From IMG/VR virus record IMGVR_UViG_3300045988_120991, positions 101,979 through 165,978 of that record: 64,000 nucleotides of DNA; one strand, given 5' to 3'. The notes below the pieces were generated by a model. The model was not told the origin of the DNA and did not search any database. It worked only from the letters and a program-made list of their open reading frames with translations. The position numbers and the translations under genes are program-made. Positions 963 through 19,448 of this stretch are shown piece by piece. Each line of letters opens with the position of its first letter. Within the stretch, counting starts at the first letter, position 1. The stretch is from a virus.

Positions 963-1796
963 TCAAATTAGTTTCTCGACATAGTTTCTGTCTTGAGTAA
1001 AGATAGGAATTTCATTATCAATTACCCACTTACTTCTCTTGATATAACCACAAATATTTCCTACTTCATCATACTCGGTAAGACTATCATCAGCCTTAAT
1101 GCAGCAGCTACCACGCTTTAGAGTTGTAGAATAATCATTCCAGTTGATGCCCTTCTGTAGCATAAGCATATCCTGAATGTTGTTGCAAGACTTACCGTGA
1201 AGTTCCTTCTGACTGAAGTTTGCCTGACCTACAGACTGGATAGAGTTGCGAGTGGCATCTTGCTGTCGCCAGATTAGCGCATTGCAAACTTCCTCCTTGG
1301 GAATTGTAAAGACACGAGAATCAAACATAGCACCTTTATTTCTTGCGTTAATGAGAATTTTTGTATATTCGGTTAAATCCTTTGTAATACCACAATCGGC
1401 ATCAAGATTGTTGTCAATATACTTTACAATATTGTCGTTAAATGCTTTATTAAATGCTAGCGTTGCCATACTTGCAGATACACTACACATCTTCTGTAAA
1501 TTGTTGCCGAACCAAGCGTCAGTTGTAAGCTCTGCATAGTCAGTAAGCACAAGAGAAATTTCGTCGCTCTGTGTATAGCCAAGGACACAACCTTGGATGT
1601 TCTCACAGAGATACTTCATAGTATCTTGCATAGTCTTTACAAAAATATCATCAAAAGGTTTTTTCATGCCCTTAGTAAAAGTATGACCAGCTTTCATATC
1701 CATTCTAATAATAATCGGCATTCTACGAGTTAAATAATACCGACTGATATTCTCGTAGTTATTTTTCATACGGTCGCCCAGCGTAGTCTTATCCAT
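963..1796 (-). CDS. tRNA(His) guanylyltransferase-like protein (Thg1/TLP family 3'-5' nucleotidyltransferase)
   Basis: 277 aa. N-terminal GDRMKxYE, IIRMDMKAGHTFTKG (compare RxDGxxFHxFT) and YTQSDEISLVL (compare SDEYSF) are Thg1 family signatures as I remember them. Confidence 0.8.
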   Translation of the reverse strand: MDKTTLGDRMKNNYENISRYYLTRRMPIIIRMDMKAGHTFTKGMKKPFDDIFVKTMQDTMKYLCENIQGCVLGYTQSDEISLVLTDYAELTTDAWFGNNLQKMCSVSASMATLAFNKAFNDNIVKYIDNNLDADCGITKDLTEYTKILINARNKGAMFDSRVFTIPKEEVCNALIWRQQDATRNSIQSVGQANFSQKELHGKSCNNIQDMLMLQKGINWNDYSTTLKRGSCCIKADDSLTEYDEVGNICGYIKRSKWVIDNEIPIFTQDRNYVEKLI

Positions 1797-1798
1797 CT

Positions 1799-2098
1799 TT
1801 AATCCTCCTTAACGATTTCTTCTAGGCTATTGGTTTGTACATTATAAACGTATGGCATTCCGTTTGGTGCATAATAAGGAGACATATAACCGTAACCAGA
1901 ATTTCCAGCACATTCATTAAAAAGTATATATACGATTTTTGTATTCGTATCATAATATAAATCTTGCATCATTGTAGGCTGTAGCCTACCATTGGTGCGT
2001 GTTGTATAACCTTTAGAACCAGCAAATGTGGCACTACACCCAGCTAGACAAAAAACAAGAAATACAGTTAGAATCAACGCAATAATTTTATTTCGCAT
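1799..2098 (-). CDS. putative lipoprotein
   Basis: Start moved to MRNKIIALILTVFLVFCLAGC, which has AAGGAG upstream. Signal peptide plus a lipobox-like LAGC. Confidence 0.6.
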   Translation of the reverse strand: MRNKIIALILTVFLVFCLAGCSATFAGSKGYTTRTNGRLQPTMMQDLYYDTNTKIVYILFNECAGNSGYGYMSPYYAPNGMPYVYNVQTNSLEEIVKED

Positions 2099-2636
2099 TA
2101 GTCTTGCTCCTTTCAATAATTTCATCAAGTGTTCTTGGCCAATATTCCATCCAAGGCATCATGCAACCAACATTGATAATATTGCCGCAGTTATCACTAT
2201 TTGTTTGTTTGCTATCCTTTAGCTCCTTCGTCCACTTTTCAACAAAATCCTGCTCTCTTGTTACATGAGTGTGTCCATGCAGCATATAGCAGTTCGGATT
2301 ATAAGATGCTTTATAACACATAATTGGATAGTGACACATAATAACATGTCGCCCACAGTCTGTAATTTCTTTATAATCAACCGCTTCTACGATATATTTC
2401 TTAACGTCATATGGATAATCCTTCAAATCATGATTGCCTTTGATGATATGAATATTGCCGTTTAGCAGCTTTAGATACTTAATCCAATCATCCTTCTTTC
2501 CCCAGCAAAAATCTCCAAGATGATACACATGGTCTGCATTACTTATAACTGAATTCCAGTTGTTGACTAGTGCTTCGTTCATCTCATCAATTGTTCCAAA
2601 CGGTCTGTTATCAAATCTGATAACATTTTTATGCAT
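2088..2636 (-). CDS. metallophosphoesterase (calcineurin-like phosphoesterase)
   Basis: 182 aa with HLGD, GNHD and HGHTH metal-binding motifs in the canonical order. Confidence 0.8.
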   Translation of the reverse strand: MHKNVIRFDNRPFGTIDEMNEALVNNWNSVISNADHVYHLGDFCWGKKDDWIKYLKLLNGNIHIIKGNHDLKDYPYDVKKYIVEAVDYKEITDCGRHVIMCHYPIMCYKASYNPNCYMLHGHTHVTREQDFVEKWTKELKDSKQTNSDNCGNIINVGCMMPWMEYWPRTLDEIIERSKTNAK

Positions 2637-2693
2637 TAAGCGCCTTCAACTAATGAAGGTCAGAAATATAGAAAATCTGACTCATAGATAATA

Positions 2694-2924
2694 TCACGCT
2701 CCTTTCTTTGGTCTTCCACGCTTTTTCTTTTCTGGTTTATCTTCAATTTCTTCAACTTCAAATTTTGGAGCCTCTGGCATTTGCATCCAATATACAACTT
2801 GAAGGTATGTGTTAAACTTCGCATTACCCATATGTAGGGCTGATTTTACGATGCCTTCGTTTGTACATATAATTACGTCCTGATACTTCTCAGGCCATTT
2901 ATCATTGATATTAATCCAATCCAT
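2694..2924 (-). CDS. DUF551-like small protein with C-terminal AT-hook-like KKRGRPKKG
   Basis: 76 aa. The WININDKWPE...WMQMPEAP pattern resembles phage DUF551. Basic GRP tail. Confidence 0.5.
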   Translation of the reverse strand: MDWININDKWPEKYQDVIICTNEGIVKSALHMGNAKFNTYLQVVYWMQMPEAPKFEVEEIEDKPEKKKRGRPKKGA

Positions 2925-3849
2925 TTCTACCTCTCAAAAAGTTAAACATATCCTTGATGTCATCCATGATAGGATAACGGTCTACTGCACAAGAGTTACG
3001 AGCAAATTCACGTTTTACGAGGTCTACATACATACTTGCCGAAGTCATCTCACCATCCAAGCCATCATCTCCCATATACATCTCATCCCATGCTTCCTTA
3101 GACATAATACGCTGAGGATTGAGCTGCTTAATGGCAAGATTATCAAAGCTAACGACATCAAACCAACCATGTTCTACAATCTCAGGAAGATAGTTGTATA
3201 GGTCTTGTTTAAGACCATCAATATGCTCTCTTGCATCAGCATTCTCATAAAGCTTTTCACCACGGCGAAATTCCTTGTAACCAAGAATTAGAATCTTAAG
3301 TCCATAATAGCGAAGCTGCTCCAAATTCTGCATAGTTACAATACCATTGATGACATGAATAACTGCATTAGGAAATTCCTTCACGGCATCAATGAAGCCA
3401 TCCTGCCAAGGATTAGAGAGGGAAATACCAAGACCATAAATAAGCCCCTCGTCACGAAGCTTACGAATAAAGTCAAGGTTCTGCATAAAGTGTTCCTGAC
3501 GAATAGTAGTGTTGCAAATAAGCTTGAGATTCTTGCACTTAACAAGGAAGTCATAGAAATCAGGATGCTCAAGAACATTACCGCCACCGAGAGCCAGTTC
3601 AGTATAAGGATGGAGTTTATCAATAAAGCTCTCAGACATAATGTCTCCATGAGCACCATCACACTTAGAGTCTTCGTGGCACATCGGACAATTCATATTG
3701 CAACGATTTGTGATCTTGATATCCATAGACTCAGGGAAAGCAGCATCAAAAAAGTCTAGGTCATTCTCTCTGATTTTAGTTCCCGTGTCCAAATCAATGC
3801 TTACAGTATAATTACCATTTTGATAACTTACCCAATTACTATTCATCAT
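2911..3849 (-). CDS. radical SAM domain protein
   Basis: 312 aa. CNMNCPMC (CxxxCxxC) lies near the N-terminus within ITNRCNMNCPMCHE. Confidence 0.75.
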   Translation of the reverse strand: MMNSNWVSYQNGNYTVSIDLDTGTKIRENDLDFFDAAFPESMDIKITNRCNMNCPMCHEDSKCDGAHGDIMSESFIDKLHPYTELALGGGNVLEHPDFYDFLVKCKNLKLICNTTIRQEHFMQNLDFIRKLRDEGLIYGLGISLSNPWQDGFIDAVKEFPNAVIHVINGIVTMQNLEQLRYYGLKILILGYKEFRRGEKLYENADAREHIDGLKQDLYNYLPEIVEHGWFDVVSFDNLAIKQLNPQRIMSKEAWDEMYMGDDGLDGEMTSASMYVDLVKREFARNSCAVDRYPIMDDIKDMFNFLRGRNGLD

Positions 3850-4012
3850 AATAGCTCCTTTTCGGTGTTAATATATCAATAATTTTTTCTTTCTGCTCAT
3901 CTGTTAGGGTACAGTAGTCTAGTGTAAAATTTTCACATCCATGCTCAGGATATGCAAGACCATCGTCACAATCCCAAGAATAGCGACTTTTGCAATATTC
4001 GCAAAGGCTCAT
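3839..4012 (-). CDS. small Cys-rich protein (57 aa), hypothetical
   Basis: Below the track cutoff. Hand-translated MSLCEYCKSRYSWDCDDG...; AAGGAGG lies 5 nt upstream of the ATG. The stop overlaps the next start. Confidence 0.45.
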   Translation of the reverse strand: MSLCEYCKSRYSWDCDDGLAYPEHGCENFTLDYCTLTDEQKEKIIDILTPKRSYYDE

Positions 4013-4021
4013 AGATCCTCC

Positions 4022-4444
4022 TTAACCATCGTAGCCGTAATATCCAAAAGCAACAATCTTATCTCCACTATTAGTTGTGTAATACTCTGAGAATGTCTCT
4101 GTACCACTATTATGACGAACGAGCCACTCATTGTGTGTTAAGTACTCATCATGGCTCTTCTTCTTTTTATTTATTAGAACATACTCTGTAGTATAATCCT
4201 TTCGATCTTCTGCACTTAGTTCATCCCAACTCTTGTAATATTTACCCTTGCTAGATTCGTACTTAGCCTTAGCCTCCTCATAATCATAAGAAGTTAGTTC
4301 TTCTGCTTCAAGAAAGTCTTTATTCCAATCTCCAAACAAAATCCTACCATCACACCACTTTTCATAAGTTTCCTGTGGACAAATAGTAATTGAGTGAGTA
4401 GAAGAACTGTTTGTTTCAAATGTCATTCGTCTTACCTGTCTCAT
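4022..4444 (-). CDS. hypothetical protein, FETNSSSTHS-motif family (paralog B)
   Basis: Start moved to MRQVRRMTFETNSSSTHSI. It shares its N-terminal motif, at the same offset, with the gene immediately upstream. Confidence 0.6.
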   Translation of the reverse strand: MRQVRRMTFETNSSSTHSITICPQETYEKWCDGRILFGDWNKDFLEAEELTSYDYEEAKAKYESSKGKYYKSWDELSAEDRKDYTTEYVLINKKKKSHDEYLTHNEWLVRHNSGTETFSEYYTTNSGDKIVAFGYYGYDG

Positions 4445-4446
4445 AG

Positions 4447-5022
4447 TTAATTCCCCTTCCAATACCAATCATAGTCATTGCGATCTGTCATATAATACGG
4501 ATTTTTAATCTTAGATTCCGTTTTGGTTTGCCAGTTATAATCATCGAGATACTCCTGATCTCTTTCAATAAAACAACGCTCTTCGGCATCAGAATTGTCA
4601 TTACCAGTAAATACTAGTCCTCTACTCAGAAAACGTACAAGTTTGTCTCCATCGTTTAGTAGCTCATTTACAAAATCCGTCAATTTACTGCCATGGTCAA
4701 TATAACCATCATCAAGATATAGATAATAGTTATTGCCATAAGAAGAAATGTGAGTTTTTACATCTTCAAAATAATATTCAATGTTATGAGAATCTAGAAT
4801 ATCCTTTAAGGTTTGAATCTTCTCTTCAACTTCGTTCTCTGTATTAGACGTTTCATAAATTGCCGTGTAAAAATAATCCGCTGGATCTACTTCTTCCCAG
4901 CCCCAACCAAAATCACCTACATGAAATGAAATGAAATTAGTTGCTTTACAATTCTTTGGAATAGCAATACTGTGAGTGCTAGATGAGTTCGTCTCAAATA
5001 CGTTACTTCGAATAGTCTTCAT
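4447..5022 (-). CDS. hypothetical protein, FETNSSSTHS-motif family (paralog A)
   Basis: 191 aa, MKTIRSNVFETNSSSTHSIAIP..., with a later GYIDHGS. Tandem paralog of 4022-4444. Confidence 0.65.
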   Translation of the reverse strand: MKTIRSNVFETNSSSTHSIAIPKNCKATNFISFHVGDFGWGWEEVDPADYFYTAIYETSNTENEVEEKIQTLKDILDSHNIEYYFEDVKTHISSYGNNYYLYLDDGYIDHGSKLTDFVNELLNDGDKLVRFLSRGLVFTGNDNSDAEERCFIERDQEYLDDYNWQTKTESKIKNPYYMTDRNDYDWYWKGN

Positions 5023-5024
5023 AT

Positions 5025-5321
5025 TTATTCTCCTTCATTATTCATAATTTCATATTCATGATTAATTGCCTCTCGCATTGTAGAAAACATCTTCTCATCA
5101 GAAGTCATATATTCTGCATGAAGAATCTGAATCCTCTTTGCAGCCTTATTGCGACTAGTTTCAGATGGATCAATAGGATATAGCTTTGTAACATTGGTTG
5201 TATACCAATTCTCTCCGTCATAATATGTGGCAATAGAAGTAGTTCCATTTACTCCTACAGAAATGTTATATACGGAAACTACTTTATTATTTTTCTTTAG
5301 CTTCATCTGGATAGGGTACAT
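5025..5321 (-). CDS. hypothetical protein
   Basis: ORF track, 98 aa. First gene behind a consensus promoter plus GGAGG. Confidence 0.6.
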   Translation of the reverse strand: MYPIQMKLKKNNKVVSVYNISVGVNGTTSIATYYDGENWYTTNVTKLYPIDPSETSRNKAAKRIQILHAEYMTSDEKMFSTMREAINHEYEIMNNEGE

Positions 5322-5335
5322 ATTTGTTCCTCCTT

Positions 5336-5378
5336 TAATTTTGTACTGTAATTATATCATATACTACTCATTTGTCAA
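5336..5378 (-). promoter_or_regulatory. sigma-70-type promoter plus conserved leader
   Basis: Minus strand reads TTGACA-N16-TATAAT-t-ACAGTACAAAATTAA-AGGAGG-ATG. Confidence 0.7.
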
Positions 5379-5391
5379 GTTGGCATATTGC

Positions 5392-5419
5392 ACAAAAGGT
5401 ACGGCAAAAATGCCGTACC
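5392..5419 (-). terminator. rho-independent terminator after the kinase-HD gene
   Basis: Minus strand reads GGTACGGCA-TTTTT-GCCGTACC followed by TTTTGTG. 9-bp GC-rich stem. Confidence 0.7.
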
Positions 5420-5426
5420 TAATTGG

Positions 5427-6302
5427 TTAATGTGCTGCAAGGTCTGCTTCGTGAAGCAAATCCACAGAATTTTTAAGATATGCTGGAAGATTTTTATAAC
5501 ACTTTTCATTTAGAAATGGTGCCATATGAGTGCTTACAAGCCAAGCAACATCTATTCTGATTTCATCTGCAACAAGACCATATATCATATATGCTCCAAC
5601 GCATTGATGCTGATAGAAGTGTGCAGTATCGCTCGGTTCACCTTTTGCATTAACGAATGCTTTGACATATGGTTTACCAACATCGTGAAATGATGCTGCA
5701 AGTGCCATAATGTTATCACACATATCGTTATTTACAATATACTTATATGCCGACTCACAATGATTGTAAATATCTAAAGTATGATGTGGGTTATCATGTA
5801 GAATTCGCATGGCCTCTGTAGAATCATCTATGTATTTTTGCATATCAAATCCATCTGGAAAAATGACTCTAATTTTATCAATGCCTTCATCATAATAAGG
5901 AGCTTGAAAACGCTTAAGCATTCTGTCAATAACTTCTTTACCAACAGTACGTTCTCTTGCGGCATCACGTTCAATGCAAGTTTCAATAGGTGCCCAAATA
6001 ATATGGCATTCAATTTGTGCAAACCTTGGGCACTTTGTAATGATGCTAGCTCTATCTTTTCTTGTGATATTTGTAGCATCATAGATGACATCAAAACCAT
6101 TATTCAATAACATAATTGCTCTATCCTGCATCAATGCAAATACATCTGAAGGATTTCCCTGTATATTTTCATCTCCATATAGTTCTTTTCTGATAGCATC
6201 AGAAGACAGATGATATGTATAGCTATTTTTCATTTTTTCTGCATAAGTGGTTTTCCCAGAACCAGGAATTCCACAAAGAAGTATTAGTACAGGTCTAGTC
6301 AT
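5427..6302 (-). CDS. bifunctional P-loop polynucleotide-kinase-like / HD phosphohydrolase protein
   Basis: N-terminal LLCGIPGSGKTTYA (Walker A) and DATNITRKDR. The C-terminal half has H..HD..H spacing (HHTLDIYNH, FHDVGKP, HFYQHQ, STHMAPF). Confidence 0.75.
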   Translation of the reverse strand: MTRPVLILLCGIPGSGKTTYAEKMKNSYTYHLSSDAIRKELYGDENIQGNPSDVFALMQDRAIMLLNNGFDVIYDATNITRKDRASIITKCPRFAQIECHIIWAPIETCIERDAARERTVGKEVIDRMLKRFQAPYYDEGIDKIRVIFPDGFDMQKYIDDSTEAMRILHDNPHHTLDIYNHCESAYKYIVNNDMCDNIMALAASFHDVGKPYVKAFVNAKGEPSDTAHFYQHQCVGAYMIYGLVADEIRIDVAWLVSTHMAPFLNEKCYKNLPAYLKNSVDLLHEADLAAH

Positions 6303-6549
6303 TCTTATTCTCCATTTCCATCATAAAGTTCTTTTTAAGAACATTCACAAGTACATCATTCATAACCTTCTCTGCAACTTTATTTATAATTGGTTTGTGA
6401 GTATCCATATACTTCTGCTTAACATCTTTTACAATTTCAACAATATTATCTGCAATTTCTACTGCTTCATCTTTGGAATAGATATACGAAGCCTTTACTT
6501 CAATTAAATCTTTAATTGCTCCAGCTACAGCTCCAACGTTATCTTTCAT
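6295..6549 (-). CDS. hypothetical protein
   Basis: Start moved to MKDNVGAVAG, with GAGGAGG upstream. Overlaps its neighbours by a few nt. Confidence 0.5.
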   Translation of the reverse strand: MKDNVGAVAGAIKDLIEVKASYIYSKDEAVEIADNIVEIVKDVKQKYMDTHKPIINKVAEKVMNDVLVNVLKKNFMMEMENKND

Positions 6550-6550
6550 A

Positions 6551-8029
6551 TTAATTCTCCTCCTCATTAATCTCTTCTTGTGCTTCTTCCATATCAGGAG
6601 TAGTTGCCTCAGCCTTTACTAGACCCTCAAGACACTTAAATGCAAAGTTCTTATGTTTATATGCGCAGAATTTAGGCTTATTCACAATACGAACTACTAC
6701 ACCCTCGCGTACATGAATCTTGCCAATAGGATCGGGGCCATCATAATATTGCTCTGCAATATTTTTAATCCATTCACCAGGGGTCCCTTCACGACAGACT
6801 CTCCAAGTGCCATGCTCGCCATAACAATCATAACCTTCTTCAAGACCCTCATCAGCGGGGATAAAACCTCTCCACAACATCGGGACACATTTACAACCCA
6901 TTTGCTCACAACGATAACGCATGAAGTCAGGAGAATACTCTACTACATCTCCGTCTTCATTTGTCATAGTCATACGATAAACATAAAAGTCAGACTGAGG
7001 AACTTCTCTTTCAGTGATACCAATACCTTCTTTGCCGTCTGGATTACAGCCATAAGAGAAAGTCGTAGTCTTACCATACTGCTTCACAAATTCCTTATCA
7101 TTGAGCTTCTTATTATCAGCGGTTGCCATAATAGGAGTGCTAGTATGGGTGAACCCAACTACCTCATAGTAGACCTCTTCACCCTTATGTAGTTTGCCCT
7201 CAAAGAACTTGGAGTGCTGTTCGCGGAACTCATTAGAGCCATAGTAGCCGCCATCAAAATTCTCAAGAACGGTACGACGAGTACCAGACACATAGCCCCA
7301 ATTATAAATAGGAGTTGCAGAAGAAAGTCCAAGATTCGCGAACTTCTGAGTTATAGCACCAACTTTATCACCAGACATTACCGCATCGAGAGCAGCTTGA
7401 TAGATACGGTTTGTACATCTGTAACCCTTAAATACAGGTAAATAGCCGGTGCGCTGAGAAGTACCATGCATCTTTAGAGTGATTTCAATCTGGTCTCCCG
7501 CCTGAAAAGCTCCAAGATTATAGGCTAGCTGTTCAGTATCAGCATGTTCAGTAAACAGAGGTGCGATAGGAACCTTCTTCTTACGAGTATGATTACCATT
7601 TGTAGCATGACCACTACGGGTATTTCTGCGAGGAATGTACTTAGCGCAAATCTCATGTCCATTGAATGTAGTAATAACATCTCCAACTTTTAGATTGGAT
7701 ACGTCACCAAAAGATTCTAAGCAAGCCAATGGTAGAAATAGACCATCTGACTTTTCACCACGAAGCCTAATAGAAGTTACATTGCGCTTGTCTGGGTCCA
7801 TATAACCGCCAATGTTATTACCATCTACATCCTTCTTACGAAGCAAATTATTAGTATCTGCAAACTCAACAGAAAGTTGACCATCCGTAGGGAAATATAC
7901 ACCAATCTGACCGTCTGTATATTCCATACTTACACAAACCGTATTGCCAAAACACTCACCAAGCTGTAATCTGTCTGCGTTAGGATGCTTACGCAGATTT
8001 TTAATTGTTGTTACATACGCATTATACAT
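6551..8029 (-). CDS. ATP-dependent RNA ligase with N-terminal tRNA-binding-type OB domain
   Basis: N-terminal KHPNADRLQLGE resembles the Trbp111/EMAP tRNA-binding OB fold. Nucleotidyltransferase motif I is LKMHGTS (compare KIHGTN of T4 Rnl2), motif IV is REGVVVRI and motif V is AYKHKNFAFK. Confidence 0.75.
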   Translation of the reverse strand: MYNAYVTTIKNLRKHPNADRLQLGECFGNTVCVSMEYTDGQIGVYFPTDGQLSVEFADTNNLLRKKDVDGNNIGGYMDPDKRNVTSIRLRGEKSDGLFLPLACLESFGDVSNLKVGDVITTFNGHEICAKYIPRRNTRSGHATNGNHTRKKKVPIAPLFTEHADTEQLAYNLGAFQAGDQIEITLKMHGTSQRTGYLPVFKGYRCTNRIYQAALDAVMSGDKVGAITQKFANLGLSSATPIYNWGYVSGTRRTVLENFDGGYYGSNEFREQHSKFFEGKLHKGEEVYYEVVGFTHTSTPIMATADNKKLNDKEFVKQYGKTTTFSYGCNPDGKEGIGITEREVPQSDFYVYRMTMTNEDGDVVEYSPDFMRYRCEQMGCKCVPMLWRGFIPADEGLEEGYDCYGEHGTWRVCREGTPGEWIKNIAEQYYDGPDPIGKIHVREGVVVRIVNKPKFCAYKHKNFAFKCLEGLVKAEATTPDMEEAQEEINEEEN

Positions 8030-8058
8030 TTTGTTCTCCTCTCATTAATTTTGTATCG

Positions 8059-8538
8059 TTAAGAAAAATATTGTATATCAAATTCATACCCTTGTGAATC
8101 AACAAAATAATTATTCACAAATTGATTAATGAACTTATAACTCTGCGGACTTCCTTGGATATGACTAATAGGATAATAATCTGGTATATTTTTATCATAT
8201 AATTGAGAATATTTATTTTGCTCAATCTTCTCTGGCTTCTTCGCCCCAACAACACCACCATTGTGCTTTAGTACTCTGTCGTCAAACGCATCCCAATTGT
8301 ACTCACAGCCATACTCATCATAAATACGGAATTCGCCCGTATCGTATGCGGCCTTATACTCTGCCACAGAACTAATTCCATCCTTGTGTGCTTGAAACAA
8401 AGGCAACCAGCCAACACTTGTCTTTGCAATATGAATTTTATAACCAAAGTGTGGCTCATCTGTAAGTTCATAAGAATATGGTGCATAGCGCTGTGCTTGT
8501 TCTTTATTCTTTGTAATCATATAAAAATTTGCGCCCAT
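8059..8538 (-). CDS. hypothetical protein
   Basis: ORF track, 159 aa, in the gene train. Confidence 0.6.
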   Translation of the reverse strand: MGANFYMITKNKEQAQRYAPYSYELTDEPHFGYKIHIAKTSVGWLPLFQAHKDGISSVAEYKAAYDTGEFRIYDEYGCEYNWDAFDDRVLKHNGGVVGAKKPEKIEQNKYSQLYDKNIPDYYPISHIQGSPQSYKFINQFVNNYFVDSQGYEFDIQYFS

Positions 8539-8541
8539 ATC

Positions 8542-8931
8542 TTAGCCCTCATAAAATCTGAATAGTTTACTTAGTGGCACCCCATTCGCCTTAGCAAGAC
8601 CCATAGCATAATCGCACACGTCATCATCGTCCGTCACACCAAGCTCATCACTCATGTAATCACTCAAGGTATCATAAGTATCATTATTGTTATTACTCCA
8701 GCCAATTAACATCTGCCCATTTACTGTAAAAATATCACAAGGTGAACCACCAGCACCATTTGAGAATTTACACCAAGCACCTTCGAGGACCGAGTTACTC
8801 AATGCTTTTGCATCTCTCTTGTCAACTTCAATTACTTTATACTTTTCACCAGAATACGTCTTATTGAAAGTAATGTCGTTGTCCTTTAGAATCTTCTCAA
8901 TATTGCCAGTCGTTAGCATTTCTACTTTCAT
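8542..8931 (-). CDS. hypothetical protein
   Basis: Start moved to MKVEMLTTGN, with AAGGAGG upstream. The longer track start would overlap the HD gene. Confidence 0.55.
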   Translation of the reverse strand: MKVEMLTTGNIEKILKDNDITFNKTYSGEKYKVIEVDKRDAKALSNSVLEGAWCKFSNGAGGSPCDIFTVNGQMLIGWSNNNNDTYDTLSDYMSDELGVTDDDDVCDYAMGLAKANGVPLSKLFRFYEG

Positions 8932-8941
8932 CTTGTCCTCC

Positions 8942-9718
8942 TTATAGTTCATCGTCTTCTTCTGCAAGCTTCTTCTTAATAGCTTTAATTGCAACTTGTA
9001 CATCTGGACGAGTAATGTTCTCCTCCATCCAGACCACATAATCGTCACCAGATTTGAATAGGTCAATCAGCTTCTCGCCCTTATGCTTACCAAATGTTAG
9101 CACATACTCTTCTGGCTTAGATTCTACTCTAGGAGTTTCAATGTTCTCAAAATCCATAGTAAGAGTTTTGCGAGATGCAAGGTAGTCTGCAAGATGTACT
9201 AGCTCTTGATATGTGTCTTCTGGTTTCGGCAAACATTCTCCGGTTTTTCTATCCACATTCCATTGGCCCATATGCGATTCAATACAATGAGCAATTAGTT
9301 CAATCTCATCGTGATTTAGATACTTGCCATCATAACTACGAATAACTGCTGCCATTTGTAGAGGGTGGTCGAATTTAGTATACTTACTTCTTTCATAATC
9401 TGATTGGGACCCACTCTTACGGCCATCATGAATCAGTCCTGCCACACGTAGCAAGTCTCTTTCTCTACTAGGAATTATTTTGTTGTATTGTTCAAGTTCA
9501 AGAAAGAAATTTAGGAATCTTACAACTGCAATCTGATGACACATCAATCCAAGTTCTCCAAGTGAATAGGCCGGATGGTACTTTCCAGTAGACGATGCTC
9601 CAACATGCCATATATATTCTGGAAGGTTGTCTAATAACACAATTGCAAAATCTTTAATATCATCATTTTCAAATGTATTTAGTACTGGTTGTACTATATT
9701 TAGTCTTTCAGGCGTCAT
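8942..9718 (-). CDS. HD-domain phosphohydrolase with C-terminal DUF3820-like tail
   Basis: 258 aa with KYHPAYS...CHQ...LIHDGRK...HCIESH (H..HD..H). The C-terminal FGKHKGEKLIDL...YVVWM motif is seen in phage/ExoX-like tails. Confidence 0.7.
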   Translation of the reverse strand: MTPERLNIVQPVLNTFENDDIKDFAIVLLDNLPEYIWHVGASSTGKYHPAYSLGELGLMCHQIAVVRFLNFFLELEQYNKIIPSRERDLLRVAGLIHDGRKSGSQSDYERSKYTKFDHPLQMAAVIRSYDGKYLNHDEIELIAHCIESHMGQWNVDRKTGECLPKPEDTYQELVHLADYLASRKTLTMDFENIETPRVESKPEEYVLTFGKHKGEKLIDLFKSGDDYVVWMEENITRPDVQVAIKAIKKKLAEEDDEL

Positions 9719-14077: not shown

Positions 14078-14153
14078 TGGAGCACGTGACGAGGCTTGAA
14101 CTCGCAACAGCCAGATTGGAAATCTGGAACTCTACCAATTGAGCTACACGTGC
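14078..14153 (-). tRNA. tRNA-Gly(UCC)
   Basis: Hand-folded cloverleaf: GCACGTG/CACGTGC acceptor, loop TTTCCAA, T-loop TTCAAGC, CCA encoded. Confidence 0.85.
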
Positions 14154-14158
14154 ATTTG

Positions 14159-14235
14159 TGGTACACCTTGAAGGACTCAAACCTTCGACCTTCTGATCCG
14201 TAGTCAGACGTTCTATTCAACTGAACTAAAGGTGC
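14159..14235 (-). tRNA. tRNA-Arg(ACG)
   Basis: Cloverleaf with TCTGA-CTACGGA-TCAGA anticodon arm, T-loop TTTGAGT, CCA encoded. Confidence 0.85.
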
Positions 14236-14240
14236 ATATA

Positions 14241-14315
14241 TGGTGCCCGTGGAGAGATTCGAACTCTCGACTCACGGCTTAAAAGGCCGTTACTCTACCA
14301 CTGAGTTACACGAGC
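14241..14315 (-). tRNA. tRNA-Lys(UUU)
   Basis: ACGGC-CTTTTAA-GCCGT anticodon arm, GAGAG-TTCGAAT-CTCTC T arm, CCA encoded. Confidence 0.9.
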
Positions 14316-14318
14316 ATA

Positions 14319-14395
14319 TGGTCGGAGTGCAGGGGCTTGAACCCTGGGCCTCTAGATCCCAAATCTAGCGCTCTACCAAACTGAGCTACACCCCG
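14319..14395 (-). tRNA. tRNA-Pro(UGG)
   Basis: CTAGA-TTTGGGA-TCTAG anticodon arm, CAGGG-TTCAAGC-CCCTG T arm, CCA encoded. Confidence 0.9.
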
Positions 14396-14400
14396 AAATG

Positions 14401-14477
14401 TGGCACCCCGTGTTGGACTCAAACCAACGACACATGGCTTAGAAGGCCATTGCTCTGTTCAACTGAGCTAACGGGGC
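14401..14477 (-). tRNA. tRNA-Arg(UCU)
   Basis: ATGGC-CTTCTAA-GCCAT anticodon arm, GTTGG-TTTGAGT-CCAAC T arm, CCA encoded. Confidence 0.9.
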
Positions 14478-14482
14478 ATATA

Positions 14483-14577
14483 TGGCGCCGAGGGTGGGAT
14501 TCGAACCCACGGGCCGAATATAAATCGGCACACAAGATTTCAAGTCTAGGCGCTTATGACCACTTGCGCACCTCGGC
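14483..14577 (-). tRNA. tRNA-Ser(UGA), class II
   Basis: Loop CTTGAAA, long variable arm GCCGA...TCGGC, GTGGG-TTCGAAT-CCCAC T arm, CCA encoded. One mismatch in the anticodon stem. Confidence 0.8.
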
Positions 14578-14690
14578 ATATTAACTTTGTAATCCCAAAC
14601 TCCTCCACACAGATTACTGGGCACCCCTTACCTCGAATGCTAGTTAGTAGCAACAAACGTTTGTGCCGTTTCCACAAATAAAGATACACC

Positions 14691-14885
14691 TCACTGCGTA
14701 TTAACCTCTGTATATTCAGTACTAGATAAGGTAATCATTCTTTCGCATCCGTCCTGTGGACAAAAAATATTTGCAACCCCAAGATTATTTATTCCGTCAG
14801 ACGGATTAAATGCAAATTCACAACCACAATAAGGGCAGATTGCCTTATAGGTCTTAACTTTGCCTCCCTTGATAATATACTTCAT
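14691..14885 (-). CDS. small zinc-ribbon protein embedded in the tRNA array
   Basis: 64 aa with CPYCGC...CPQDGC. GAGGTG RBS. Confidence 0.5.
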   Translation of the reverse strand: MKYIIKGGKVKTYKAICPYCGCEFAFNPSDGINNLGVANIFCPQDGCERMITLSSTEYTEVNTQ

Positions 14886-14896
14886 AATAACACCTC

Positions 14897-15016
14897 TTAA
14901 TTAAACTTGTTCAACTGCCGCTTAACTTTACGGATAAGGCCCTCGTTCATAGTCTCGCCTCGTGCCAAAAGCTTTGCTAGACGATTTTCATAATGTTCCT
15001 TAGTGCGAAAGTTCAT
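14897..15016 (-). CDS. small basic helical protein (39 aa) embedded in the tRNA array
   Basis: Hand-translated MNFRTKEHYENRLAKLLARGETMNEGLIRKVKRQLNKFN. Strong AGGAGG upstream. Confidence 0.35.
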   Translation of the reverse strand: MNFRTKEHYENRLAKLLARGETMNEGLIRKVKRQLNKFN

Positions 15017-15042
15017 AATATGTACCTCCTAAAATTTTTGTA

Positions 15043-15165
15043 TGGCAGGGGTAGTAGGGTTCGAACCTACGATGCGGGAGTCTGGTCAAGGTAGTTGGTA
15101 CTGCCCCAACTAAATTCACTTGAATACCTTGAAAGTCCCGTGCCTTACCACTTGGCTATACCCCT
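15043..15165 (-). tRNA. tRNA-Gln-like gene interrupted by a 49-nt insertion in the anticodon loop (UUG if CTTT+GAC are joined; UUC is the alternative)
   Basis: AGGGGTA/TACCCCT acceptor, GCC-AAGTGGTAA-GGC D arm, CGGGA...TCCCG anticodon stem enclosing 56 nt, GTAGG-TTCGAAC-CCTAC T arm, G73, CCA. Insertion at 15083-15131. Confidence 0.65.
15094..15110 (-). repeat. conserved insertion hairpin, copy 1 (GTTGG-GGCAGTA-CCAAC)
   Basis: The same 5-bp stem and 7-nt GGCAGNA loop recur in the insertions at 16662-16678 and 17532-17548. Confidence 0.7.
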
Positions 15166-15168
15166 ATA

Positions 15169-15243
15169 TGGTGGATCTGACGTGACTCGAACACGCAACT
15201 TCTTCCTTGCAAGGGAAGCTTTCTCCCATTGAAATACAGACCC
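15169..15243 (-). tRNA. tRNA-Cys(GCA)
   Basis: CTTCC-CTTGCAA-GGAAG anticodon arm, GCGTG-TTCGAGT-CACGT T arm, CCA encoded. Confidence 0.85.
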
Positions 15244-15405
15244 AGATTTTATGAGATAGCTACACTATGTATACCTAATGTAGCTATTAGGTTTTCTAAC
15301 TCCTCACCTCAAACCATTTTTATCTGTCTCTCCTCTTAGCCAATCAGATTTGAGTGACTTGAACGGACCGCCGTCCTCACATTGATAAAATAGTAAAATC
15401 AACAA
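15244..15405 (-). other. 162-nt non-coding spacer with strong hairpin inside the tRNA array
   Basis: Minus strand contains ATAGCTACA-N14-TGTAGCTAT (9-bp stem) and GGTTT...AAACC. I found no tRNA fold and no ORF. Confidence 0.3.
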
Positions 15406-15496
15406 TGGCGCGATAGGAAGGCTTCGAACCTTCGCACGGCTTTCACCGCCTAGCAGATTAGCAATCTACCCTCTTCAACCACTTGAGTACTACCGC
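15406..15496 (-). tRNA. tRNA-Ser(GCU), class II
   Basis: GTAGA-TTGCTAA-TCTGC anticodon arm, long variable arm GGCGGTGAAAGCCGT, CCA encoded. Confidence 0.85.
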
Positions 15497-15499
15497 ATA

Positions 15500-15703
15500 T
15501 TAATCTAATGTTCTTCCAGTTGCTAATTCAAAAATTAAATTATCAACACAGGGAATGTGCATTGCCTCTATCTCATATTGAGTACGATGTTCAATGTCAT
15601 TAATATAGATAGGACAATCTTTACATTCTACATTTTCACAAAAACGAACAGCTTTTTCTACTATTTTAGAATTCGCAAATTTTATATATTCTTCCCAACG
15701 CAT
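15500..15703 (-). CDS. small Cys-containing protein embedded in the tRNA array
   Basis: Start moved to MRWEEYIKF, with GGAGG 5 nt upstream. 67 aa. Confidence 0.5.
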   Translation of the reverse strand: MRWEEYIKFANSKIVEKAVRFCENVECKDCPIYINDIEHRTQYEIEAMHIPCVDNLIFELATGRTLD

Positions 15704-15723
15704 AAAATCCTCCATAAAACGAG

Positions 15724-15752: not shown

Positions 15753-15775
15753 CCACGGTCCCAATCGAGCTTTTC

Positions 15776-16025: not shown

Positions 16026-16027
16026 CT

Positions 16028-16105: not shown

Positions 16106-16116
16106 ATATCTTTGGA

Positions 16117-19442: not shown

Positions 19443-19448
19443 TTTAAA

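What the first reader, a model, noticed from the sequence alone, without database searches (positions are those of the whole stretch)
963..9718. Complete RNA end-healing, sealing and 5'-repair toolkit clustered next to the tRNA array
Within 9 kb lie a Thg1-like 3'-5' nucleotidyltransferase (tRNA 5'-end repair or G-1 addition), a metallophosphoesterase, a radical SAM enzyme, a P-loop kinase-HD fusion (5'-OH kinase plus 2',3'-phosphoesterase chemistry), an RNA ligase and another HD hydrolase. T4 Pnk/Rnl1 established that phages repair anticodon-nuclease damage. The added Thg1-like enzyme, the Ro-like protein and insertion-bearing tRNAs suggest something broader. One option is a multi-layer counter-defence against tRNA-targeting host nucleases. 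A more speculative option is the enzymology needed to excise and rejoin the tRNA insertions.
Basis: partly seen in the sequence, partly recalled or inferred. Interest (0 to 1): 0.75.

Follow-up and report, generated by a model that had tools for sequence, protein, structure and literature searches.

The report
Phage tRNA-repair gene cassette
A large phage carries, beside its tRNA genes, an already-described kind of RNA-mending kit (kinase-phosphoesterase, RNA ligase, 3'-5' polymerase, Ro-like protein), most likely used to repair tRNAs cut by bacterial defence nucleases.

Summary
All six genes exist at the stated coordinates, and profile searches support the family calls.

Three genes form a credible RNA-repair core:
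- a Thg1-like 3'-5' polymerase, closest to the Bacillus thuringiensis tRNA 5'-repair enzyme;
- a polynucleotide kinase fused to an HD phosphoesterase;
- an ATP-dependent RNA ligase with all nucleotidyltransferase motifs.

In more than 100 related phage contigs the ligase, kinase and phosphoesterase recur together with parts swapped: three ligase families, and HD or metallophosphoesterase as the phosphoesterase. A structurally Ro-like protein with tRNA-like RNAs flanks the tRNA array.

"Complete toolkit" is overstated:
- The metallophosphoesterase is interrupted by a conserved 13-nt element containing a stop codon.
- The RlaP nucleotidyltransferase found in most relatives is absent.
- The radical SAM enzyme and the second HD protein show no link to RNA.

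Comparative genomics has already described phage RNA-repair cassettes of this composition, so this is a new member of a known kind.

The splicing idea is not excluded. Three array tRNAs carry nested tRNA-like minihelix inserts ending in CCA inside the anticodon, and rejoining the halves would need a ligase.

The parts
963..1796 (-). Thg1-like protein (TLP), a 3'-5' nucleotidyltransferase of 277 aa. Catalytic carboxylates D33, D78 and E79 are present. It has a roughly 34-aa insertion relative to BtTLP.
   Evidence: PF04446 2.1e-26; phrog_4717 2e-90; PDB 4kgk (B. thuringiensis TLP) 1e-63, with RMD and QSDEIS aligned.
2088..2636 (-). Main ORF of the metallophosphoesterase (182 aa). It carries the GD, GNHD, H and GHTH motifs but lacks motif I (DxH).
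   Evidence: Metallophos_2 1.1e-8, starting at profile position 15; phrog_547 from profile position 41; motif positions. dN/dS is 0.08-0.13 against L002 and L256.
2640..2652 (-). 13-nt interruption TAGTTGAAGGCGC inside the metallophosphoesterase gene. It has a stop codon directly after the His codon of motif I and sits in the hairpin CCUUCA/UGAAGG.
   Evidence: The same element is in L002, L006 and L256. Homologues in L005, L007, L008 and L015 are uninterrupted.
2650..2685 (-). Upstream mini-ORF MSQIFYISDLH* that encodes motif I of the metallophosphoesterase.
   Evidence: Three-frame translation; conserved in 4 contigs with one synonymous change.
2911..3849 (-). Radical SAM-type Fe-S enzyme (312 aa). 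It lies in the interval but is not supported as part of the repair system.
   Evidence: CNMNCPMC at residue 50; PF04055 below cut-off; phrog_16999 3e-34; near the ligase in only 6 of 34 loci; homologues in Lak and Microcystis phages.
5351..5378 (-). Sigma-70-like promoter with a 12/12 consensus match and an extended -10. It lies between the kinase-HD gene and the downstream genes.
   Evidence: This is a consensus match only; it is the only 12/12 site in 500-10300.
5427..6302 (-). Pnk-HD (291 aa): an N-terminal polynucleotide 5'-kinase (P-loop G11-T18, D35, R38, DATN75-78, R116, R118) fused to a C-terminal HD phosphoesterase (H174, H181, H206-D207, H228, H232, H259, D287, H291).
6295..6567 (-). 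Small ORF (90 aa) overlapping both the ligase and the kinase genes. Function unknown.
   Evidence: conserved directly upstream of the kinase in L005, L014, L015, L030 and L042.
6551..8029 (-). ATP-dependent RNA ligase (492 aa): an N-terminal OB domain plus a nucleotidyltransferase domain. Motifs: I K186-M-H-G, III E289, IIIa Y349-R352, IV E442-G-V, V K458-x-K460.
8942..9718 (-). HD-domain protein (258 aa) with an ExoX-like C-terminal motif. It lies in the interval; its role is unresolved and is more likely in DNA or nucleotide metabolism.
14078..17601 (-). tRNA array: 14 standard tRNAs plus 3 insert-bearing ones. No tRNA-His.
15043..15165 (-). tRNA-Gln(UUG) with a 49-nt nested minihelix insert after nucleotide 35. 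The insert is a 7-bp stem, a hairpin with loop GGCAGTA, and a 3' ACCA tail.
   Evidence: The insert-free orthologue is at L056 9675-9748.
16609..16758 (-). tRNA best read as Ile(UAU), with a 73-nt nested insert after nucleotide 34. The insert ends in ACAA.
17469..17601 (-). tRNA-Leu(UAA) with a 47-nt nested minihelix insert after U34. The insert ends in ACCA.
   Evidence: The insert-free orthologue is at L056 7669-7754.
17650..19269 (-). Ro60/TROVE-like protein with a vWA domain (DUF2828 + DUF7788). The true start is probably M23, at about 19203.
   Evidence: phrog_850 'RNA-binding protein' 1e-139. AF2 model pLDDT 70.5. Foldseek hits: 9kop 9e-10, phage phiLo Ro60 9l5y 6e-8, 1yvp 5e-7, 2nvo 5e-6. 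Start inferred from 96% query coverage and from M23 being nearly invariant in the alignment of homologues.
19448..19567 (-). tRNA-like RNA without a CCA end. It carries a hairpin followed by an ACAGCAA insert and lies directly upstream of the Ro-like gene. Candidate Y-RNA analogue.
   Evidence: Such elements lie upstream of the gene in 46 of 65 related loci, and 113 of 118 elements carry the motif. Precedent: PMC4201824.

Best explanation
The functional unit is a phage RNA break-repair cassette aimed mainly at tRNA.

Proposed mechanism:
1. A host ribotoxin or anticodon nuclease cuts a tRNA, leaving 2',3'-cyclic phosphate and 5'-OH ends.
2. The HD domain of Pnk-HD opens and removes the 3' phosphate, and its kinase domain phosphorylates the 5'-OH.
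3. The ligase, adenylylated on K186, seals the 3'-OH/5'-P break.
4. The Thg1-like enzyme, transcribed separately, rebuilds 5'-truncated acceptor stems by templated 3'-5' addition, using 5'-monophosphate ends that the kinase can supply.
5. The Ro-like protein with its tRNA-like RNA acts beside this as an RNA quality-control or scaffold particle.

The phage's own tRNA array supplies replacements, so the locus as a whole protects translation during infection.

Shown here: the enzyme families, intact active-site motifs, and recurrent genomic association with swapped parts.
Inferred: the substrates (tRNA), the direction of the conflict (counter-defence), and every biochemical activity.

The radical SAM enzyme, the two FETNSSSTHS-motif paralogues and the 258-aa HD protein are neighbours, not demonstrated members.
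For: Families and catalytic residues:
- TLP: 4kgk 1e-63; D33, D78 and E79 present.
- Kinase: CthPnkp 1e-25, PSTK 4e-19, Pnkp1 1e-15, T4 Pnk 1e-11. Invariant P-loop, SSD35, R38, DATN, R116 and R118.
- HD: invariant H174, H206-D207, H232, H259 and D287. It resembles the HD region of class II CCA/A-adding enzymes (TIGR02692 1.8e-8; 3wfp 1.6e-6).
- Ligase: motifs I-V invariant; TIGR02306 1e-13.

Association:
- The ligase is directly followed by a Pnk-HD homologue in Bacillus phages such as PBC2.
- In 34 full-flank IMG/VR loci the kinase is present in 27. All 27 also have either a fused HD (13) or a metallophosphoesterase (14, of which 13 lie immediately downstream). RlaP is in 28, Thg1 in 13 and the Ro-like gene in 20.
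- In close relatives the same slot holds three non-orthologous ligases, including a T4 Rnl1-type ligase (PF09511), which is the tRNA anticodon-loop repair enzyme family.

Ro-like module: fold match, and tRNA-like RNAs upstream of the gene in 46 of 65 loci.

Literature:
- Thg1-PNK-RNA ligase neighbourhoods (PMC2904730).
- Phage RNA-repair repertoires with tRNA arrays, ligases, PNK, HD or calcineurin phosphatases, RlaP, Thg1 and TROVE (PMC7824862).
- Runella HD-Pnk with an adjacent ligase (PMC6097658).
Against: - No activity has been tested.
- The host and its nucleases are unknown. There is no nucleotide match in 50,697 phage records.
- The ligase is of the OB-N-terminal type (weak similarity to Naegleria Rnl). 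Characterised members of that type seal nicks in duplexes rather than anticodon-loop breaks (my own knowledge).
- The HD and ligase domain hits are below Pfam's curated cut-offs.
- Thg1 lies behind a separate strong promoter-like site and is within 10 kb of the ligase in only 13 of 34 loci.
- The metallophosphoesterase is interrupted, and RlaP is absent.
- Runella HD-Pnk heals DNA as well as RNA ends, according to the title of the paper cited, so DNA substrates are not excluded.
Confidence: 0.6

Rival explanations
1. Maturation of the phage's own interrupted tRNAs. The nested tRNA-like inserts in tRNA-Gln, tRNA-Ile and tRNA-Leu are cut out, with RNase P at the 5' junction and a tRNA 3'-end nuclease after the insert's CCA. 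The phage ligase then rejoins the anticodon loop. Pnk-HD, and RlaP in relatives, trim or heal imperfect ends.
For: - In 35 unique insert-bearing tRNAs in the window and related loci, removing a [7-bp stem ... N-CCA/CAA] element restores a canonical 7-nt anticodon loop with U33 and a purine at position 37. The tails are ACCA 21, TCCA 6, GCCA 5 and ACAA 3.
- The inserts are present or absent between near-identical phages.
- The stems show compensatory changes.
- The nucleotide before the insert is U in most cases.
- Every insert-bearing genome examined carries one of three ligase types in the same slot.
Against: - All genomes of this family examined have a ligase, so there is no contrast between genomes with and without inserts.
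- Ligase plus Pnk-HD pairs occur widely in phages, for example in Bacillus phages.
- RNase P-type cuts give 3'-OH and 5'-P ends that need no kinase or phosphoesterase.
- No endonuclease that cuts right after the CCA was identified.
- No RNA data exist.
- No published precedent was found.
Confidence: 0.15
2. There is no coordinated pathway beyond the ligase/Pnk-HD pair. The interval is an accessory-gene island in which unrelated auxiliary genes lie side by side: Thg1-like for ordinary tRNA maturation, a phosphoesterase, radical SAM, and an HD nucleotide hydrolase tied to DNA modification.
For: - A separate promoter-like site splits the interval.
- Radical SAM, unkA/unkB and HD258 co-occur with the ligase only in the nearest clade.
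- HD258 is syntenic with dCMP deaminase and a class-V aminotransferase, and its SPO1 homologue lies among replication genes.
- A PurZ-like gene nearby points to DNA base modification.
Against: - Thg1, the Ro-like gene and RlaP recur near the ligase in different orders across divergent contigs.
- Thg1-PNK linkage is documented in bacteria (PMC2904730).
- There is no tRNA-His in the window that would need G-1 addition.
Confidence: 0.18
3. DNA end repair. Pnk-HD and the ligase heal and seal nicks in phage DNA, for example after host nuclease attack or during replication of a modified genome, rather than repairing RNA.
For: - Runella HD-Pnk is described as a DNA/RNA end-healing enzyme (reference title).
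- The cassette lies in a region rich in DNA metabolism genes: dCMP deaminase, SHMT, a PurZ-like gene, Pol III alpha and RecJ.
Against: - The ligase belongs to RNA ligase families (phrog_968, TIGR02306, PF09414/PF21189).
- In relatives it is replaced by a T4 Rnl1-type RNA ligase.
- Its partners are RlaP, Thg1 and a Ro-like protein, and it is adjacent to the tRNA array.
- In Bacillus phage PBC2 a separate DNA ligase is annotated 2 kb away from the pair.
Confidence: 0.07

Closest known systems
Phage T4 Pnkp + Rnl1 repair of PrrC-cleaved tRNA-Lys
   Same: Same logic: a phage-encoded 5'-kinase and 3'-phosphoesterase heal the ends and an ATP-dependent RNA ligase seals them. The kinase domain is homologous (T4 Pnk 1e-11 with the family profile). 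Relatives of this phage carry an Rnl1-type ligase in the same slot.
   Different: The phosphoesterase here is an HD domain, not the DxD acid phosphatase of T4 Pnkp. The ligase in the window is an OB-N-terminal type, not Rnl1. A Thg1-like enzyme and a Ro-like protein are present in addition.
Runella slithyformis HD-Pnk with its adjacent ATP-dependent ligase (Munir and Shuman 2017; summarised in PMC6097658)
   Same: A bifunctional HD phosphoesterase plus polynucleotide kinase, encoded next to (downstream of) a ligase gene with overlapping ORFs. HD and kinase signature residues are conserved.
   Different: The domain order is reversed here: kinase at the N-terminus, HD at the C-terminus. phrog_6931 matches in two stretches, with the kinase at the profile's C-terminus. 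This is a phage rather than a Bacteroidetes chromosome. No Tpt1 or MTase-HIT genes were seen.
Clostridium thermocellum Pnkp (kinase + metallophosphoesterase + ligase) / Hen1, and the Capnocytophaga Pnkp1-Rnl-Hen1 complex (PMC4411300)
   Same: These have the closest solved kinase domains (4gp7 1e-25; 4xrp 1e-15). Relatives of this phage use a stand-alone kinase followed directly by a metallophosphoesterase, which is the same healing chemistry.
   Different: No Hen1 methyltransferase was found. In the window the metallophosphoesterase is interrupted and an HD domain is fused to the kinase instead.
Bacterial Thg1-like proteins (B. thuringiensis TLP, PDB 4kgk) and Thg1-PNK-ligase neighbourhoods (PMC2904730)
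   Same: 1e-63 to BtTLP, with catalytic carboxylates conserved. The genomic association with a polynucleotide kinase and RNA ligase matches what was reported for bacteria.
   Different: It is phage-encoded, has a roughly 34-residue insertion (query 122-155), and lies about 3.6 kb from the kinase behind a separate promoter-like site.
Ro60-Y RNA modules, including YrlA tRNA mimics next to rsr and Thermus phage phiLo Ro60 (PMC4201824; PMC12135203)
   Same: A TROVE + vWA fold, with one or more tRNA-like RNAs encoded immediately upstream of the gene.
   Different: There is no sequence-level similarity to Ro60; the Pfam families are DUF2828/DUF7788. The RNAs do not match Rfam YrlA and carry their own conserved hairpin plus ACAGCAA motif.
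RNA-repair repertoires of jumbo phages (Iyer et al. 2021, PMC7824862)
   Same: The same parts list is described for phages: tRNA arrays, ATP-dependent ligases, PNK, HD or calcineurin phosphatases, RlaP, Thg1, and ROT/TROVE with a tRNA-like partner.
   Different: Related contigs here are about 150-200 kb, at or below the jumbo range. The cassette shows slot-wise replacement of ligase and phosphoesterase among near relatives.

Membership tests
Thg1/TLP 3'-5' nucleotidyltransferases | Match to the Thg1 catalytic domain above the curated threshold | tested here: met
   PF04446: 92.8 bits against a cut-off of 29.2.
Thg1/TLP 3'-5' nucleotidyltransferases | Metal-binding carboxylates of the palm domain (one Asp in strand 1 and the D-E pair) | tested here: met
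   D33 (RMD) and D78-E79 (QSDEIS) align with identical residues of BtTLP 4kgk.
Thg1/TLP 3'-5' nucleotidyltransferases | Templated 3'-5' addition to 5'-truncated tRNA, or G-1 addition to tRNA-His | not testable with these tools
   This needs enzymology. No tRNA-His gene is present in the window.
Polynucleotide 5'-kinase (Pnkp clade of P-loop kinases) | P-loop GxxGxGK(S/T), a catalytic Asp after strand 2, and lid arginines | tested here: met
   G11-T18, S33-S34-D35, R38, R116 and R118 are invariant in 12 homologues and aligned to CthPnkp.
Polynucleotide 5'-kinase (Pnkp clade of P-loop kinases) | Closest relatives are characterised polynucleotide or tRNA kinases rather than nucleotide kinases | tested here: met
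   Profile against PDB: CthPnkp 1e-25, PSTK 4e-19, Pnkp1 1e-15, T4 Pnk 1e-11. Adenylate kinases score only about 5e-4.
HD-Pnk (Runella type) | N-terminal HD domain followed by a C-terminal kinase domain | tested here: not met
   The order is kinase (1-150) then HD (170-291). It works like an HD-Pnk but is a permuted architecture.
HD-Pnk (Runella type) | HD metal-ligand signature H...HD...D | tested here: met
   H174, H206-D207 and D287, plus H232 and H259, are invariant. The Pfam HD score is 21.7 against a cut-off of 22.
HD-Pnk (Runella type) | Encoded next to an ATP-dependent ligase | tested here: met
   The ligase (6551-8029) is upstream and linked through the overlapping ORF 6295-6567. The same pairing occurs in Bacillus phages.
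ATP-dependent RNA ligases (covalent nucleotidyltransferases), OB-N-terminal (DraRnl/NgrRnl) type | Nucleotidyltransferase motifs I (KxxG), III, IIIa, IV and V | tested here: met
   K186-M-H-G, E289-V-V-G, Y349-V-Y-R, E442-G-V-V-V-R and K458-H-K are invariant in 9 homologues down to 42% identity.
ATP-dependent RNA ligases (covalent nucleotidyltransferases), OB-N-terminal (DraRnl/NgrRnl) type | N-terminal OB domain of the PHA02142/DRB0094 kind | tested here: inconclusive
   PF21189: 22.8 bits (cut-off 27). TIGR02306: 1e-13 but 50.5 bits (cut-off 151). NgrRnl: 2e-3. No structure model was made.
Calcineurin-like metallophosphoesterases | Motif I (DxH) in the same reading frame as motifs II-V | tested here: not met
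   DxH lies in an 11-codon upstream ORF that ends at a TAG. A 13-nt insertion separates it from the main ORF.
Calcineurin-like metallophosphoesterases | Motifs GD, GNH(D/E), H and GH(T)H | tested here: met
   GDF41, GNHD67, H at 102 and GHTH121; Metallophos_2 35.6 bits.
Radical SAM superfamily | CxxxCxxC cluster motif and a domain match | tested here: inconclusive
   CNMNCPMC at residue 50. PF04055 scores 21.3 bits against a cut-off of 29.5. No subfamily reached its cut-off in NCBIfam.
Ro60/TROVE ribonucleoprotein module | TROVE ring plus vWA fold | tested here: met
   Foldseek probability 1.00 to 9kop, 9l5y, 1yvp and 2nvo, E 9e-10 to 5e-6, TM 0.34-0.52, using a model with pLDDT 70.5.
Ro60/TROVE ribonucleoprotein module | Adjacent non-coding RNA with a tRNA-like domain (Y RNA) | tested here: met
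   19448-19567 scores 42.3 bits against Rfam tRNA. Equivalent elements lie upstream of the gene in 46 of 65 loci. They do not match Rfam YrlA.

The most novel reading that the evidence does not exclude
The phage ligase is the sealing enzyme of a previously undescribed, protein-dependent tRNA splicing route in bacteria; in relatives, RlaP and Pnk-HD would also take part.

Phage tRNAs for A-ending codons (Gln-UUG, Ile-UAU, Leu-UAA, Lys-UUU) carry, inside the anticodon, a nested tRNA minihelix or a whole tRNA-like element with its own 7-bp acceptor stem and CCA end. The ordinary tRNA end-processing enzymes would cut it out (RNase P at its 5' end, a 3'-end nuclease after the CCA), and the anticodon loop must then be religated.

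A possible second substrate is the 13-nt stop-containing element in the metallophosphoesterase mRNA. Its exact removal would restore the reading frame and the homologue sequence pattern.
Probability: 0.15. Interest if true: 0.85.

Novelty: new member of a known kind. Interest (0 to 1): 0.42.

Why it matters
As stated, the finding adds one more uncultured phage lineage to the list of phages that carry tRNA arrays together with healing, sealing and rebuilding enzymes. That supports the view that tRNA cleavage is a major bacterial defence and tRNA repair or replacement a common phage answer.

What the family offers beyond that:
- A natural "parts-swap" series. Three ligase families, and HD or metallophosphoesterase as the phosphoesterase, occupy one genomic slot. 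This shows which functions are indispensable and provides uncharacterised enzymes for biochemistry: the permuted Pnk-HD and the 492-aa ligase.
- Nested tRNA-like inserts. If these depend on the ligase, this would be a new splicing mechanism in bacteria and a new reason for phages to carry RNA ligases.

Tried and rejected
- Nucleotide search of the 9-kb interval against 50,697 phage records: no match. The insert-bearing tRNA-Leu also has no match there.
- DatZ-like dATPase hypothesis for the 258-aa HD protein, prompted by the PurZ-like gene. The single sequence found no PDB relative. A 10-sequence profile found only generic HD similarity (PDE10A, E about 0.1) and no DatZ. This is not supported by sequence, although a nucleotide-pool role is still possible.
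- The two paralogues at 4022-4468 and 4447-5022 (motif FETNSSSTHSI). There are 873 metagenomic homologues without Pfam domains and a confident model (pLDDT 86), but no PDB fold match (best E 0.38). Function unknown, and no RNA link was found.
- "Decaying pseudogene" reading of the interrupted metallophosphoesterase. I first favoured it because the gene is deleted in L003 and L004 and truncated in L006. I rejected it as the sole explanation after finding dN/dS of 0.08-0.13 at dS 0.25-0.40 among three carriers of the interruption.
- Small self-cleaving ribozymes or group I introns in the short tRNA inserts. Rfam found none at E <= 1. The inserts lack the terminal G of group I introns; a true group-I-like 762-nt intron with an HNH ORF occupies the same tRNA-Leu site in L057.
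- Archaeal bulge-helix-bulge introns. The inserts are not at position 37/38, and the junctions do not sit in 3-nt bulges 4 bp apart (by inspection).
- Testing whether insert-bearing genomes lack a ligase. Apparent absences of the window-type ligase turned out to be replacements by other ligase families, so the test could not discriminate.
- The Burroughs and Aravind 2016 review could not be retrieved. Four literature searches for tRNA-like or minihelix introns in phages found no precedent.

Full report
**1. Observation**

The window is a one-strand (minus) block of phage genes, about 36% G+C. It has no nucleotide match among 50,697 deposited phages.

Profile evidence:
- **Thg1 domain:** PF04446 2.1e-26; phrog_4717 2e-90.
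- **Metallophosphoesterase:** Metallophos_2 1.1e-8; phrog_547 1e-35.
- **Radical SAM:** PF04055 3e-4, below cut-off; phrog_16999 3e-34; CxxxCxxC at residue 50.
- **Kinase-HD:** AAA_33 1.7e-26 plus HD 2.6e-4.
- **RNA ligase:** PF21189 and PF09414 below cut-off; phrog_968 4e-62; TIGR02306 1e-13.
- **Second HD protein:** PF01966 8.8e-7.

The gene calls therefore do not fail in profile searches, although three rest on sub-threshold Pfam scores that other libraries rescue.

**2. The three core enzymes**

*Thg1-like protein.* Its nearest solved relative is the Bacillus thuringiensis TLP (4kgk, 1e-63), not a eukaryotic Thg1. D33 and D78-E79 align with identical residues. No tRNA-His gene is present in the window. 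5'-end rebuilding is therefore a better guess than G-1 addition.

*Kinase-HD.* A 12-sequence family profile hits polynucleotide and tRNA kinases far more strongly than nucleotide kinases:
- C. thermocellum Pnkp kinase domain, 1e-25
- PSTK, 4e-19
- Capnocytophaga Pnkp1, 1e-15
- T4 Pnk, 1e-11
- adenylate kinases, about 5e-4

The P-loop, SSD35, R38, DATN and two lid arginines are invariant. So are H174, H206-D207, H232, H259 and D287 of the HD domain. The HD part resembles the HD region of class II CCA/A-adding enzymes.

The characterised Runella HD-Pnk has the opposite domain order. This protein works like an HD-Pnk but is a permuted architecture.

*Ligase.* It keeps K186-x-H-G and motifs III, IIIa, IV and V in homologues down to 42% identity. 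It has an N-terminal OB region weakly similar to the Naegleria and Deinococcus ligases.

**3. Association across related genomes**

- Homologues are widespread in deposited phages: ligase in 390 records, Thg1 in 164, kinase in 220.
- In Bacillus phages of the PBC2 group, the ligase is directly followed by a Pnk-HD homologue.
- IMG/VR holds a large family of 100-200 kb contigs related to the window.

Counts within 10 kb of the ligase, in 34 loci with full flanks:

| Gene | Loci (of 34) |
|---|---|
| Kinase | 27 |
| RlaP-like nucleotidyltransferase | 28 |
| Metallophosphoesterase | 21 |
| Ro-like gene | 20 |
| Fused HD domain | 13 |
| Thg1 | 13 |
| 258-aa HD protein | 9 |
| Radical SAM | 6 |

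All 27 kinase-bearing loci have a phosphoesterase. It is a fused HD in 13, and a metallophosphoesterase in the other 14, of which 13 lie immediately downstream. HD and metallophosphoesterase thus behave as alternative healing modules.

In close relatives that seemed to lack the ligase, other ligases fill the same slot, between the u159/u174 genes and a small membrane protein-RlaP-kinase block:
- a canonical PHA02142-OB + PF09414 ligase (L256, L201, L207, L221);
- a T4 Rnl1-type ligase (L203, L212).

This slot-wise, non-orthologous replacement is the strongest argument that an RNA-sealing function is under selection here. It also suggests that the substrate resembles that of T4 Rnl1, namely broken tRNA anticodon loops.

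**4. What is not as described**

*(a) The metallophosphoesterase is interrupted.*
- Its motif I (…ISDLH) lies in an 11-codon ORF at 2650-2685.
- This is followed by a 13-nt insertion with an in-frame TAG (2640-2652), inside a hairpin.
- The 182-codon ORF resumes in another frame.
- Four contigs share the element.
- The downstream ORF is nevertheless under strong purifying selection: dN/dS 0.08-0.13 at dS 0.25-0.40.
- It is therefore not a simple pseudogene. How it is expressed is unexplained. The candidates are re-initiation, a CAU-to-CAU ribosome hop, or excision of the 13 nt, which would restore the homologue pattern DLHxxHxNV.

*(b) RlaP is absent.* It is present in the closest relatives but missing from all 64 kb of the window.

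*(c) The radical SAM gene, the two FETNSSSTHS paralogues and the 258-aa HD protein show no RNA connection.*
- Radical SAM homologues lie in Lak megaphages and Microcystis phages.
- The paralogues give a confident model with no PDB match.
- The HD protein's SPO1 homologue gp32.6 sits between the SSB gene and exonuclease/DNA ligase genes.
- The HD protein is syntenic with dCMP deaminase.
- It occurs without any repair gene within 7 kb in about 20 loci.

*(d) A separate promoter-like site.* A 12/12 sigma-70-like promoter at 5351-5378 separates the HD258-ligase-kinase genes from the genes running down to Thg1.

**5. Surroundings**

*Ro-like protein.* The DUF2828/DUF7788 protein at 17650-19269 has no sequence-level PDB relative. 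Its AlphaFold model (pLDDT 70.5) matches TROVE/Ro60 structures:
- 9kop, 9e-10
- Thermus phage phiLo Ro60, 6e-8
- Xenopus Ro, 5e-7
- Deinococcus Rsr, 5e-6

*Y-RNA-like element.* The "interrupted tRNA" at 19448-19567, directly upstream, is one of a family of 1-4 tandem tRNA-like RNAs. They mostly lack a CCA end and carry a hairpin plus ACAGCAA insert. They are found upstream of this gene in 46 of 65 related loci. This fits the known pattern of tRNA-mimicking Y RNAs next to Ro60 genes in bacteria and phages (PMC4201824).

*Three genuinely interrupted tRNAs.* The other three are true array tRNAs. Insert-free orthologues in a near-identical contig fix the boundaries:
- tRNA-Leu(UAA): CTT|47 nt|AAAA
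- tRNA-Gln(UUG): CTTT|49 nt|GAC

In 35 unique cases, removing an element that starts with a 7-bp stem and ends with N-CCA (CAA in 3) restores a canonical anticodon loop. The tRNAs affected are Gln(UUG), Ile(UAU), Leu(UAA), Lys(UUU) and Thr(UGU). The insert mostly follows U34.

Short inserts look like acceptor/T-arm minihelices, with loop GGCAGNA or GTCATCA. Inserts of 75-115 nt look like whole tRNA-like molecules with canonical T loops. The stems show compensatory changes.

**6. Mechanism and rivals**

*Best-supported reading (confidence about 0.6).* This is a tRNA/RNA break-repair cassette used as counter-defence:
- the HD domain removes 2',3'-cyclic or 3' phosphates;
- the kinase adds the 5' phosphate;
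- the ligase seals;
- the TLP rebuilds 5' ends;
- the Ro-like particle and the tRNA array act alongside.

Only the families, the motifs and the genomic association are shown. The substrates and the direction of the conflict are inferred.

- It gains a concrete form from the insert anatomy. A 7-bp stem followed by NCCA and preceded by U is what RNase P recognises (my own knowledge of RNase P substrates).
- Such cuts leave 3'-OH and 5'-P ends that need only a ligase.
- No nuclease for the 3' junction is known.
- Every genome of the family has a ligase, so no contrast is available.
- There is no RNA evidence.

*Other rivals.*
- A looser "accessory island" reading, about 0.18.
- A DNA-repair reading, about 0.07.

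**7. Comparison with what is known, and novelty**

- Thg1-PNK-RNA ligase neighbourhoods were reported in 2010 (PMC2904730).
- The full repertoire was laid out for jumbo phages in 2021 (PMC7824862): tRNA arrays, ATP-dependent ligases, PNK, HAD, calcineurin or HD phosphatases, RlaP, CCA enzyme, Thg1, and ROT/TROVE with a tRNA-like partner.
- Bacterial HD-Pnk/ligase, Pnkp/Hen1 and Pnkp1-Rnl-Hen1 systems are characterised.

The finding is therefore a new member of a known kind, with a permuted Pnk-HD and a divergent ligase as local variations.

The surprising material lies beside it: the nested tRNA-like inserts and the selected 13-nt interruption. I found no precedent for either in the searchable literature. 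Both deserve their own follow-up.

Noticed in passing
window 15043-15165, 16609-16758, 17469-17601 (minus strand); 35 unique cases in loci L002-L078: True array tRNAs (Gln-UUG, Ile-UAU, Leu-UAA; also Lys-UUU and Thr-UGU in relatives) carry an insert inside the anticodon, mostly after U34. The insert is itself a tRNA minihelix or a whole tRNA-like molecule: a 7-bp stem at its 5' end, a T-arm-like hairpin (loop GGCAGNA, GTCATCA or a canonical T loop), and N-CCA exactly at the 3' junction. Presence or absence varies between about 95%-identical phages, and the stems show compensatory changes. I found no precedent in the literature searched.
   Followed up: yes
window 19448-19567 (minus strand); upstream of the DUF2828 gene in 46 of 65 loci (L055-L119): One to four tandem tRNA-like RNAs lie immediately upstream of the Ro-like gene. 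They mostly lack a CCA end and carry a hairpin followed by a conserved ACAGCAA motif. They are likely Y-RNA analogues for a divergent TROVE protein. They do not match Rfam YrlA.
   Followed up: partly
window 2640-2652 (13-nt element) and 2650-2685 (mini-ORF), minus strand; also L002, L006, L256: The metallophosphoesterase gene is split by a conserved 13-nt element with an in-frame TAG inside a hairpin. Even so, the downstream ORF has dN/dS 0.08-0.13. Exact removal of the 13 nt would restore the homologue motif DLHxxHxNV. A CAU...CAU pair with a stop right after the first CAU resembles the T4 gene 60 bypass site.
   Followed up: partly
L003 11746-12555, and 28 of 34 ligase loci; absent from the window: An RlaP-like Pol-beta nucleotidyltransferase (PF10127, borderline score) sits between the ligase and the kinase in most relatives. 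It is preceded by a small conserved membrane protein. The window lacks it entirely.
   Followed up: yes
L256 8208-9371, L207 9369-10595, L221 9890-11065, L203 8376-9479, L212 8290-9405: Three non-orthologous RNA ligases fill the same genomic slot among close relatives: the window type of 470-492 aa, a canonical PHA02142-OB + PF09414 ligase, and a T4 Rnl1-type PF09511 ligase.
   Followed up: yes
L057 7609-8457: In one relative, tRNA-Leu(UAA) carries a 762-nt insertion in its anticodon loop, the loop where the window's 47-nt insert lies after U34. It has an HNH endonuclease ORF and ends in G, so it looks like a group I intron. This is the classic cyanobacterial tRNA-Leu intron position.
   Followed up: no
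window 20254-21423 (minus strand), with Pol III alpha at 23197-26463 and RecJ at 26499-28292: An adenylosuccinate-synthetase-like gene matches the PHROG family annotated as the PurZ-type enzyme (phrog_1211, 2e-62) but scores weakly against NCBIfam PurZ. The phage may replace adenine by 2-aminoadenine, or use a related purine pathway.
   Followed up: no
window 8942-14038 (minus strand): A run of genes: HD protein, dCMP deaminase (10148-10555), 3D-domain protein, class-V aminotransferase (11139-12263) and serine hydroxymethyltransferase (12800-14038). It looks like a nucleotide or DNA-modification block rather than RNA repair. The HD protein's SPO1 homologue is gp32.6, among replication genes.
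   Followed up: partly
window 4022-4468 and 4447-5022 (minus strand): Two adjacent paralogues share an N-terminal FETNSSSTHSI motif. There are 873 metagenomic homologues with no Pfam domain. The AlphaFold model is confident (pLDDT 86) but has no PDB fold match.
   Followed up: partly
window 5351-5378 (minus strand): The only perfect 12/12 sigma-70 consensus site (TTGACA-16-TATAAT with an extended -10 TG) in 500-10300. It lies in the 105-nt gap downstream of the kinase-HD gene.
   Followed up: no
window 28240-29529, 42784-44712, 47322-48038 (minus strand): A GIY-YIG/NUMOD homing endonuclease, two adjacent tyrosine recombinases (MrpR-like and phage integrase), and a second, uninterrupted metallophosphoesterase (PF00149, 7e-17).
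   Followed up: no
window 15957-16026 and 16449-16524 (minus strand): Two array tRNAs look aberrant in the ARAGORN drawings. One is a 70-nt tRNA-Pro(UGG) without a CCA end and with an odd anticodon loop. The other is a tRNA-Met(CAU) with a mismatched, extended acceptor stem.
   Followed up: no
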